64,000 nt of DNA, from positions 896,001 through 960,000 of the forward strand of contig CP086569.2 in NCBI GenBank assembly GCA_009914755.4, read 5' to 3'. Under the pieces are notes generated by a model. The model was given only the letters and a program-made list of their open reading frames with translations, searched no databases and was not told the DNA's origin. The translations under genes were made by a program, and so were the position numbers. Source of the DNA: the human T2T-CHM13v2.0 reference genome, Homo sapiens. Positions 31,470 to 32,943 of the stretch are shown here, in pieces (position 1 is the first letter of the stretch; every line of letters begins with the position of its first letter).

Positions 31470-31655
31470 AAACAGCACCTTGCTGGGCTCAAGTGACCCT
31501 CCCACCTCAGCCTCTAGAGTAGCTGGGACTACAGGCAGGTGCCACCAGGTCTAGCTATTTTTTTTTTTTTTTGTATTTGCAGAGACAGGGTTTTGCCTTG
31601 CGGTGACCCGAGATCGAGCCACTGCACTCCAGCCTGGGCAACAAGAGTGAAACTG
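31470..31655. mobile_element. Head-to-head junction of an antisense Alu fragment (31470-31595) and a sense Alu 3' end (31596-31655) whose A-tail continues into the next repeat
   Basis: ctgggctcaagtgaccctcccacctcagcctctagagtagctgggactacaggc...tttttgtatttgcagagacagggttttgcc | ttgcggtgacccgagatcgagccactgcactccagcctgggcaacaagagtgaaactgtgtctaaaaaataaaataa. Confidence 0.7.
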
Positions 31656-32943
31656 TGTCTAAAAAATAAAATAACATAGCATAACATAACATAACGTAAC
31701 ATAACATAACATAACATAACATAACATAACATAACATAACAAACACAATAAAAATAAAATAAAATAAAAAATAAAATATAAAATAAAATAAAAAATAAAA
31801 ATATAAAAATAAAATAAAATATAAAATAAAATAAAATAAAAAATAAATATATAAAAATAAAATGAAATATGAAATAAAAAATAAAATAAATAAAATATAA
31901 AATAAATAAATAAATAAAATATAAAATATAAAATAAAATAAAATGTAAAAGTAAAATAAAAAATAAAATAAAATAAAATAAAAATATAAAAATAAAATAA
32001 AATATGAAATAAAAAAATGAATAAAATATAAAATAAAATAAAATATAAAAATAAAATAAAATATAAAATAAAAAATAAATAAAATATAAAATAAAATATA
32101 AAAATAAAATAAAATAATAAAATAAATAAAATATAAAATAAAATATAAAATAAATAAATAAATAAAATATAAAATATAAAATAAAATAAAATGTAAAAGT
32201 AAAATAAAAAATAAAATAAAATAAAATAAAAATATAAAAATAAAGTAAAATATGAAATAAAAAATAAATAAAATATAAAATAAAATAAAATATAAAAATA
32301 AAATAAAATATAAAATAAAAAATAAATAAAATATAAAATAAAATATAAAAATAAAATAAAATAATAAAATAAATAAAATATAAAATAAATAAATAAATAA
32401 AATATAAAATATAAAATAAAATAAAATGTAAAAGTAAAATAAAAAATAAAATAAAATAAAATAAAAATATAAAAATAAAATAAAATATGAAATAAAAAAT
32501 AAATAAATAAAATATAAAATAAAATAAAATATAAAAATAAAATAAAATATAAAATAAAAAATAAATAAAATATAAAATAAAATATAAAAATAAAATAATA
32601 AAATAAATAAAATATAAAAAAATAAAATATAAAATAAAAAATAAATAAAATATAAAAATAAAATAAAATGATAAAATATAAAATAAAATATAAAATAAAT
32701 AAATAAATAAAATATAAAATATAAAATAAAATAAAATGTAAAAGTAAAATAAAATATAAAGTAAAATAAAATAAAAAATAAAAATATAAAAAAATAAAAT
32801 ATGAAATAAAAAATAAATAAAATATAAAATAAAATAAAATATAAAAATAAAATAAAATATAAAAATAAAATAAAATATAAAATAAAAAATAAAATATAAA
32901 AATAAAATAATAAAATAAATAAAAATATAAAATAAAATAAAAT
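31655..32943. repeat. Complex A-rich repeat of about 1.3 kb ((ATAAC)n at 31676-31740, then (AAAAT/AAATA/ATAAA)n) with a higher-order periodicity of about 240-310 bp. Interpreted as an extremely expanded Alu tail
   Basis: Marker aaaatgtaaaagtaaaataaaaaataaaataaaataaaataaaaatataaaaataaa recurs at about 31940, 32183, 32426 and 32737; the 507-aa and 466-aa minus-strand ORFs are poly-F/Y/I translations of this tract. Confidence 0.9.

What the first reader, a model, noticed from the sequence alone, without database searches (positions are those of the whole stretch)
31596..32943. Alu poly-A tail expanded to about 1.3 kb with a roughly 240-bp higher-order structure
A sense Alu 3' end (…gcactccagcctgggcaacaagagtgaaactgtgtctaaaaaataaaataa) runs straight into (ATAAC)n and then a long (AAAAT/AAATA)n tract. 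Recurring markers (aaaatgtaaaagtaaaataaaa) appear every 240-310 bp. Tails this long with HOR structure are unusual and are likely hypervariable. Smaller examples in the window are 5237-5524, 6781-7066 ((GAAA)n) and 28829-29297 (purine-only, inside the TSD). The huge minus-strand ORFs here (507 and 466 aa) are artefacts.
Basis: seen in the sequence. Interest (0 to 1): 0.5.

Follow-up and report, generated by a model that had tools for sequence, protein, structure and literature searches.

The report
Overgrown Alu tail with block duplications
The A-rich tail of an old Alu retrotransposon fragment has grown to about 1.28 kb of A/T-only DNA, most recently by copying a block of about 240 bp three to four times; this is a large but ordinary example of a well-documented kind of primate repeat.

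Summary
A 70-bp sense Alu 3' fragment (31597-31660) runs into 1,283 bp of tail-derived repeat (31661-32943). The tail is a short A-rich stub, then (TAACA)14, then 1,197 bp with 911 A, 268 T, 18 G and no C. The 22-mer marker occurs exactly four times, spaced 248, 235 and 310 bp. The three full blocks are 99.1-99.6% identical, with an alignment score about 12 sd above a word-shuffle null.

It is not a true (AAAAT)n microsatellite, because the longest pure run is four units. It is a degenerate A(n)T array that now behaves like a minisatellite and grew by duplicating multi-motif blocks. It has no hairpin potential (MFE 0), so it is unlike AT-rich fragile-site minisatellites. The 507-aa and 466-aa minus-strand ORFs are artefacts.

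- The Alu is a rearranged fragment, possibly twin-primed, and no target-site duplication is detectable.
- The two (GAAA)n examples are paralogous copies of one locus.

Tail origin is proven by a duplication only for the 28.8-kb example. Hypervariability and assembly correctness could not be tested because no other assembly was reachable. Alu-tail AAAAT loci and block duplication inside tandem repeats are both described, so interest is low.

The parts
31483..31593 (-). Inverted Alu piece covering consensus positions about 209 down to about 100, with J-like diagnostic bases
31597..31660 (+). Sense Alu 3' fragment covering consensus positions about 218-282, S/Y-like; the tail starts right after it
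   Evidence: 60/69 identical to AluY; sequence read
31661..31671 (+). Short residual A-rich tail, AAAAAATAAAA
31672..31746 (+). (TAACA)14 with two G variants (TAGCA, TAACG), then AACAC. This is the AACAT-class pentamer block and holds the only long pure STR run in the tail (9 units)
31747..31939 (+). Degenerate A(n)T tract, called u0. Its last ~50 bp match the end of the later blocks, but overall it scores no better against them than the shuffle null. Probably the older proto-unit
   Evidence: score 296 against a null of 287 +/- 13
31940..32187 (+). Higher-order block 1 (248 bp), starting at the marker AAAATGTAAAAGTAAAATAAAA
32188..32422 (+). Higher-order block 2 (235 bp). It is 99.1% identical to block 1, with a private A-to-G change and a 12-bp deletion
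32423..32732 (+). Higher-order block 3 (310 bp). It is 99.6% identical to blocks 1 and 2 in aligned columns, and carries about 75 bp extra from an internal re-duplication of a sub-block
32733..32943 (+). Higher-order block 4 (211 bp), more diverged and truncated. It is 98.0% identical in aligned columns with 7-9 indels, and ends at unique flank CTGCCATCTC

Best explanation
This is neutral repeat DNA that grew out of the poly-A tail of an old Alu insertion. Nothing suggests a function.

The steps, with what is shown and what is inferred:
1. An Alu was retrotransposed with a poly-A tail. Only its 3' 70 bp survives in sense orientation, next to an inverted piece that is contiguous with it in the consensus. 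The layout is shown. Twin priming as its cause is inferred, at about 50%.
2. Point substitutions turned the A run into A(n)T and TAACA words, and slippage multiplied them into a degenerate array with 5-, 12- and 23-bp sub-periods. The periods are shown. The process is inferred from established knowledge that Alu tails seed A-rich microsatellites.
3. The array became too interrupted for 5-bp slippage, since pure runs reach only 4 units. Growth then switched to a minisatellite mode. A block of about 240 bp, already carrying its own A-to-G markers, was duplicated in tandem three to four times, with further indels and a nested 75-bp re-duplication. The products are shown. The mechanism is inferred: unequal sister-chromatid or homologue exchange, or template switching between misaligned blocks.

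Blocks differ by 1-2 substitutions per ~235 bp, while the Alu pieces are about 13-18% from consensus. The block duplications are therefore far younger than the insertion, roughly a few million years against tens of millions (inference).

Three consequences follow from composition alone. The minus strand has no stop codon, which gives the fake ORFs. The plus strand carries 140 AATAAA hexamers. Neither strand can form a hairpin.
For: - Direct abutment and strand: the Alu body ends at 31660 and A-rich sequence follows on the Alu sense strand.
- Composition: 911 A, 268 T, 18 G and 0 C in 1,197 bp.
- Word content: 254 of 286 A(n)T words are poly-A plus a single T, with AAAAT the commonest at 125.
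- Hierarchy of periods 5, 12 and 23, plus about 240.
- Most of the 18 G's sit in phase with the ~240-bp block, so they were copied along with it.
- Blocks are 99.1-99.6% identical, with a score about 12 sd above the shuffle null.
- Neighbouring blocks share indel states, u1 with u2 and u3 with u4, as expected for tandem unequal exchange.
- In the same window, an AluJ at 28541-28827 has a 469-bp purine-only tail enclosed by the duplication AAAATTTTATCYTGC. This shows the same process at work locally.
- Literature: 76.7% of human AAAAT loci lie at Alu elements, and about 96% of Alu-associated pentanucleotide loci lie in the poly-A tail. AAAAT loci dominate the highest expansion scores.
- Literature: multi-motif 'block mutations', attributed to unequal crossover, were classified at 29,964 tandem-repeat loci.
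Against: - No target-site duplication brackets this Alu plus tail. The best local match between the flanks scores 7 against a null mean of 6.3. The tract's position inside the original insertion is therefore not proven.
- The two Alu pieces carry diagnostic bases of different subfamilies, J-like and S/Y-like. That fits two separate Alus plus a rearrangement as well as it fits twin priming.
- Only one allele was seen, so nothing here shows that block number actually varies, or that the assembly is right.
- The dating rests on 1-2 substitutions and ignores gene conversion.
Confidence: 0.82

Rival explanations
1. The A/T tract existed before the Alu. A-rich DNA is the preferred L1 endonuclease target (TT|AAAA), so the Alu fragment may have landed at the edge of an existing A(n)T array, and the tract would not be its tail.
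For: No target-site duplication could be found to place the tract inside the insertion. A-rich tracts are known insertion targets (established knowledge).
Against: An insertion into an A-rich array should leave A-rich sequence, and a duplication, on the 5' side as well. The 5' side (31384-31482) is ordinary mixed sequence. The tract begins with typical tail derivatives (AAAAAATAAAA, then TAACA repeats) exactly at the Alu end. A proven tail expansion lies 3 kb away.
Confidence: 0.07
2. Assembly artefact. The true allele is shorter or of different length, and the near-identical ~240-bp blocks were over- or mis-assembled from low-complexity reads.
For: It is a 1.2-kb, 98.5% A+T low-complexity tract with 99%+ identical internal blocks, which is hard to assemble. 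No second assembly could be examined.
Against: Each block carries private variants and indels: a 12-bp deletion and a G in block 2, a 75-bp nested duplication in block 3, and many differences in block 4. A simple collapse or stutter artefact would not produce these. The window has no N. It also resolves several larger arrays cleanly, for example a 3.7-kb array with 95% matches at period 295.
Confidence: 0.06
3. A selected functional element, for example a matrix-attachment or DNA-unwinding region, a nucleosome-excluding tract, or a poly-A-site trap that terminates plus-strand transcripts.
For: There are 140 AATAAA hexamers on the plus strand. The extreme A/T asymmetry and A-tracts are known to disfavour nucleosomes (established knowledge). 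None of this was tested.
Against: All these properties follow automatically from the composition of any overgrown Alu tail. There is no sign of constraint, since the blocks differ freely by indels. No RNA family or gene lies nearby. Three other Alu tails over 280 bp with different motifs occur in the same window.
Confidence: 0.05

Closest known systems
Alu poly-A-tail pentanucleotide repeats of the AAAAT/TTTTA class (reference motif at the FAME loci such as SAMD12 and STARD7, and at DAB1/SCA37)
   Same: Both sit at the 3' end of an Alu on its sense strand. The dominant word is AAAAT. Both have a chimeric layout in which a second Alu-tail motif (AACAT/TAACA) precedes the AAAAT part. At 1.28 kb the tract is far above the 400-bp 'expansion' threshold used in the population survey.
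   Different: Those loci expand as long, nearly pure pentamer runs. Here the longest pure (AAAAT) run is 4 units, and growth was by ~240-bp blocks. There is no tandem TGAAA/TTTCA or ATTTC insertion, only single TGAAA words. Whether the tract lies in an intron or is transcribed is unknown.
Euchromatic tandem repeats with 'block mutations' or higher-order duplication (TRCompDB preprint, 29,964 loci)
   Same: Several motifs are duplicated together as one block, giving a higher-order period inside a tandem repeat. The preprint attributes this to unequal crossover rather than slippage.
   Different: That class is defined by differences between alleles in a population. Here the block structure is read from a single allele, so membership in the strict sense is untested.
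AT-rich minisatellites of rare fragile sites (FRA16B 33-bp unit, FRA10B ~42-bp unit); recalled from memory
   Same: Both are AT-rich, kilobase-scale arrays that behave like minisatellites.
   Different: Those repeats are rich in alternating AT and fold into hairpins. This tract is 76% A and 22% T on one strand with no TT. Its predicted single-strand fold is 0 kcal/mol and it has no internal inverted repeats. Cytogenetic fragility is untestable here.
Other overgrown Alu tails in the same window: (GAAA)n at 5239-5521 and 6773-7054, and the purine-only tract at 28829-29297
   Same: Each is an A-rich tail derivative directly 3' of a sense Alu. The 28.8-kb one is enclosed by its target-site duplication.
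   Different: They are 3 to 4.5 times shorter, use purine-only motifs, and TRF reported no long period at any of them. The two (GAAA)n tracts are paralogous copies of one locus.

Membership tests
Alu-tail-derived A-rich simple repeat | Starts directly at the 3' end of an Alu, with the A-rich strand being the Alu sense strand | tested here: met
   The Alu consensus (positions 218-287) matches up to 31666, the Alu body ends at 31660, and A-rich sequence follows from 31661 on the plus strand
Alu-tail-derived A-rich simple repeat | Repeat words are one substitution away from poly-A | tested here: met
   254 of 286 words are A(n)T with n = 1-7; 0 C and 18 G in 1,197 bp
Alu-tail-derived A-rich simple repeat | Alu plus tail enclosed by one target-site duplication | tested here: inconclusive
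   The best flank-to-flank local match scores 7 against a shuffle mean of 6.3 (95th percentile 8.5). The element is old and rearranged, so a lost duplication is expected. The positive control at 28515-28529 / 29294-29308 matches 14 of 15 bases
Expansion-prone pure pentanucleotide STR (FAME/SCA37 type) | Long, essentially uninterrupted (AAAAT)n run | tested here: not met
   The longest pure run is 4 units. TRF gives 72% matches and 14% indels at period 5
Expansion-prone pure pentanucleotide STR (FAME/SCA37 type) | Tandem pathogenic motif (TTTCA/TGAAA or ATTTC/GAAAT) inserted in the array | tested here: not met
   Only isolated TGAAA words at 31868, 32003, 32251, 32486 and 32800, never in tandem
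Expansion-prone pure pentanucleotide STR (FAME/SCA37 type) | Intronic and transcribed location | not testable with these tools
   The locus could not be placed. No exon-like ORF or RNA gene was found near it
Tandem repeat with block (higher-order) duplication | Multi-motif block repeated in tandem at much higher identity than the motifs share with each other | tested here: met
   Blocks are 99.1-99.6% identical with a score of 444 against a null of 287 +/- 13. TRF motif-level matches are 72-78%
Tandem repeat with block (higher-order) duplication | Block copy number differs between alleles | not testable with these tools
   No second haplotype or assembly was reachable
AT-rich fragile-site minisatellite (FRA16B/FRA10B type) | Self-complementary AT-rich unit able to form hairpins or cruciforms | tested here: not met
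   The DNA fold of 31940-32240 has a minimum free energy of 0 kcal/mol, no better than shuffles. The only inverted matches pair the tract with a T-run outside it

The most novel reading that the evidence does not exclude
This may be one of the longest fixed AAAAT-class Alu tails in the genome. In a survey of 28,446 pentanucleotide loci in 1,027 genomes, the largest modal allele length was 1,224 bp, and this tract reaches or exceeds that. It would be a locus that has visibly switched from microsatellite slippage to minisatellite-style block duplication. If block number varies between people, it would be a hypervariable AT-only VNTR that short-read data miss.
Probability: 0.35. Interest if true: 0.35.

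Novelty: new member of a known kind. Interest (0 to 1): 0.2.

Why it matters
It matters only modestly. The tract is a clear single-allele record of how an Alu tail can change from a microsatellite into a minisatellite. Interruptions stopped 5-bp slippage, and growth continued by ~240-bp block duplication. Loci like this are probably under-genotyped structural variants, and their fake long ORFs can mislead gene finders. The tract shows none of the sequence features tested here that mark the pathogenic pentanucleotide expansions or the AT-rich fragile sites. It should not be flagged as a candidate for either on sequence grounds alone.

Tried and rejected
   - Exact-pattern scans of metagenome contigs for the right flank and the left flank found nothing.
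   - Exact-product look-ups for the flanking ORFs 30829-31179(-) and 33133-33459(+), and for the 507-aa artefact ORF, found nothing.
   - I ran no further search on a flank ORF. Short-read or k-mer assemblies could not span a 1.3-kb low-complexity tract anyway. The bacterial, phage and plasmid collections are irrelevant to primate DNA.
2. Placing the locus. A full-text search for five VNTR consensus strings from the window returned no paper. The Rfam scan found only two Alu-derived SRP-like hits far from the tract. No convincing exon appears among ORFs of 110 aa or more. The 'known fragile site' question therefore stays open.
3. Target-site duplication search for this Alu gave nothing above chance.
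4. Hairpin or cruciform potential was rejected.
5. Treating u0 (31747-31939) as a fifth higher-order copy was rejected. Its alignment score equals the shuffle null.
6. My automatic tail-length walk over all Alu 3' ends was unreliable, with many false zeros. I used it only for the approximate Alu count and relied on TRF for tail arrays.

Full report
**What is there**

Reading 31200-33300 shows an Alu 3' end...GCACTCCAGCCTGGGCAACAAGAGTGAAACTGTGTCT, stopping at 31660. After it come:
- AAAAAATAAAA at 31661-31671.
- Fourteen TAACA units at 31672-31741, including the variants TAGCA and TAACG, then AACAC.
- An unbroken A/T tract from 31747 to 32943. It ends sharply at unique sequence, CTGCCATCTCACACTCC.

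Tandem Repeats Finder reports 31663-32943 at period 5 (AAAAT, 256 copies, 72% matches, 14% indels). It reports 31747-32943 at periods 12 (AATAAAATATAA, the best score) and 23. The 1,197-bp A/T part holds 911 A, 268 T, 18 G and no C. The window has no N.

**The higher-order structure is real**

The 22-mer AAAATGTAAAAGTAAAATAAAA occurs at 31940, 32188, 32423 and 32733, spaced 248, 235 and 310 bp. That is four exact matches against none in 100 shuffles of the window.

I rewrote the tract as run lengths of A before each T. This makes the repetition obvious: the same string of about 45 words recurs after each marker. The measures are:
- In MAFFT and pairwise alignments, blocks u1 (31940-32187), u2 (32188-32422) and u3 (32423-32732) are 99.1-99.6% identical in aligned columns, with 2-6 indels.
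- The u1-u2 alignment scores 444.5. Sequences made by shuffling the tract's own A(n)T words score 287 +/- 13, with a maximum of 333. The observed score is about 12 sd above that null.
- The best off-diagonal self-alignments fall at lags of about 250 and 486.
- Block u4 (32733-32943) is a more diverged, truncated copy: 98.0% identical, 7-9 indels, score 334-340.
- The first 193 bp (u0) share only their last ~50 bp with the blocks and otherwise score at the null. I read u0 as older proto-unit sequence, not a fifth copy.
- Block u3 carries about 75 bp extra, which is a nested re-duplication of a sub-block.
- TRF itself did not report the ~240-bp period.

**It is not a microsatellite in the strict sense**

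AAAAT accounts for 125 of 286 words. The rest are AT (54), AAAT (32), AAAAAT (22), AAAAAAT (16) and others. The longest pure (AAAAT) run is four units. The only long pure pentamer run in the whole tail is nine TAACA units. At this level of interruption, classical 5-bp slippage should be weak (established knowledge that interruptions stabilise microsatellites).

Most of the 18 G's lie in phase with the ~240-bp block. They therefore arose first and were then copied with the block. Neighbouring blocks share indel states, u1 with u2 and u3 with u4. This is what tandem unequal exchange produces.

**The Alu**

The sense piece is only consensus positions 218-287 (31597-31666, 60/69 identical to AluY). 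Immediately upstream lies an inverted Alu piece running from consensus 209 down to about 100 (31483-31593, 89/108 identical to AluJb).

The inverted piece ends where the sense piece begins in the consensus. It is attached to the upstream flank by its high-numbered end. That is the layout expected from twin priming of a single insertion (known from L1 biology, recalled from memory). However, the diagnostic bases look J-like in the inverted piece and S/Y-like in the sense piece. Two Alus plus a rearrangement is about equally likely.

No target-site duplication links the flanks: the best local match scores 7, against a shuffle mean of 6.3. Tail origin here therefore rests on direct abutment, strand and motif content, not on a bracketing duplication.

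**Local controls**

The window holds about 60 Alu 3' ends (approximate). Only four tail arrays exceed 100 bp.
- The AluJ at 28541-28827 has a 469-bp purine-only tail enclosed by AAAATTTTATCCTGC (28515-28529) and AAAATTTTATCTTGC (29294-29308). That is proof of tail origin at that site.
- The two (GAAA)n tracts are not independent. Segments 4929-5588 and 6486-7132 are paralogous across the Alu, its tail and about 65 bp of 3' flank, at 82.6% identity over 671 bp.

**Physical and coding properties**

The plus strand has no TT and no C, so the minus strand has no stop codon in any frame across 1,197 bp. The plus strand has 63-76 stops per frame. This fully explains the 507-aa and 466-aa ORFs.

The plus strand carries 140 AATAAA hexamers. 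A 301-nt sample folds as single-stranded DNA at 0 kcal/mol, no better than shuffles. The only inverted matches pair the tract with a T-run outside it. It is therefore unlike the hairpin-forming AT-rich minisatellites of FRA16B and FRA10B (recalled from memory).

**Age (inference)**

Blocks u1-u3 differ by 1-2 substitutions per ~235 bp (0.4-0.9%). The Alu pieces are 13-18% from consensus. Only about eight independent G-creating events and no C are visible in 1.2 kb.

The block duplications are therefore much younger than the insertion. The order of magnitude is a few million years against tens of millions. The counts are tiny and gene conversion is ignored.

**Comparison with what is known**

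A long-read survey of 28,446 human pentanucleotide loci reports the following:
- AAAAC, AAAAT and AAAAG make up 79% of loci.
- 76.7% of AAAAT loci and 75.6% of AACAT loci lie at Alu elements. About 96% of Alu-associated loci are in the poly-A tail.
- 15% of loci are chimeric, with segments of distinct motifs.
- AAAAT loci dominate the highest expansion scores.
- 400 bp counts as an 'expansion'.
- The largest modal allele length is 1,224 bp.

This tract therefore belongs to a well-described class but sits at its extreme upper end in length.

A second population study describes 'block mutations', which produce higher-order repeats inside euchromatic tandem repeats, at 29,964 loci (1.3%). It attributes them to unequal crossover. 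Such loci have 5.1-fold more length alleles.

**What could not be done**

No other copy of this locus was reachable. Metagenome scans for both flanks found nothing. Exact-product look-ups for three ORFs found nothing. A full-text search for the window's VNTR consensus strings found nothing. The chromosomal position, intron status, fragile-site status, population variation and assembly correctness all remain open.

The private variants in each block argue against a simple assembly artefact. So does the clean resolution of larger arrays elsewhere in the window.

**Verdict**

It is a large new member of a known kind, of low interest unless population data show exceptional variability.

Noticed in passing
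window 1-64000: The window is unusually dense in tandem arrays: (TCTA)n at 28-896; a 95-bp unit x6 at 3750-4318; a 128/270/405-bp array at 9139-12096; a 50/140-bp array at 33468-34314; a 30/60-bp array at 42283-42905; a 59/147/295-bp array at 43683-47579 with its own higher-order period (95% matches at 295 bp); a 114/229-bp array at 57987-58628; a GGA-rich tract at 60584-61380; and a 40-bp unit x45 at 61981-63803. It also holds about 60 Alu 3' ends. This looks like a VNTR-rich, possibly subtelomeric, primate region, but the locus was not identified.
   Followed up: partly
window 4929-5588 and 6486-7132: The two Alu-plus-(GAAA)n tails cited as separate examples are paralogous copies of one segment (Alu, tail and about 65 bp of 3' flank; 82.6% identity over 671 bp). 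The tail expansion therefore predates a local duplication of about 1.56 kb.
   Followed up: yes
window 28515-29308: The AluJ at 28541-28827 has a 469-bp purine-only tail (GGGA, GAAA and GA blocks). The tail is enclosed by a 15-bp target-site duplication, AAAATTTTATCYTGC, at 28515-28529 and 29294-29308. This is a clean proof that tails in this region expand in place.
   Followed up: yes
window 31212-31387: An Alu left-monomer-only element (consensus 1-133, at 31228-31359) has an A-run of about 25 bases. It is flanked by a perfect 12-bp duplication, AGAAATTGCTGT, at 31212-31223 and 31376-31387. It is either a free-left-monomer-like insertion or a truncated one.
   Followed up: partly
window 31483-31666: The Alu carrying the long tail is an inverted piece (consensus 209 down to about 100) joined to a sense piece (consensus 218-287). 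This matches a twin-priming layout, but the subfamily-diagnostic bases of the two pieces differ (J-like against S/Y-like).
   Followed up: partly
window 31384-31482: The unique sequence just upstream contains an octamer, ATTTGCAT, followed a few turns later by TATAAATA, and a perfect 9-bp tandem duplication, CTCTGCAAG x2, at 31452-31469. It looks promoter-like or like an LTR fragment. It was not identified.
   Followed up: no
window 14730-14846 and 1367-1514 (minus strand): These are the only two Rfam gathering-level hits in the window. Both are Metazoa_SRP matches (72.1 and 71.1 bits against a threshold of 70) that coincide with Alu elements, so they are Alu-derived and not SRP RNA genes.
   Followed up: partly
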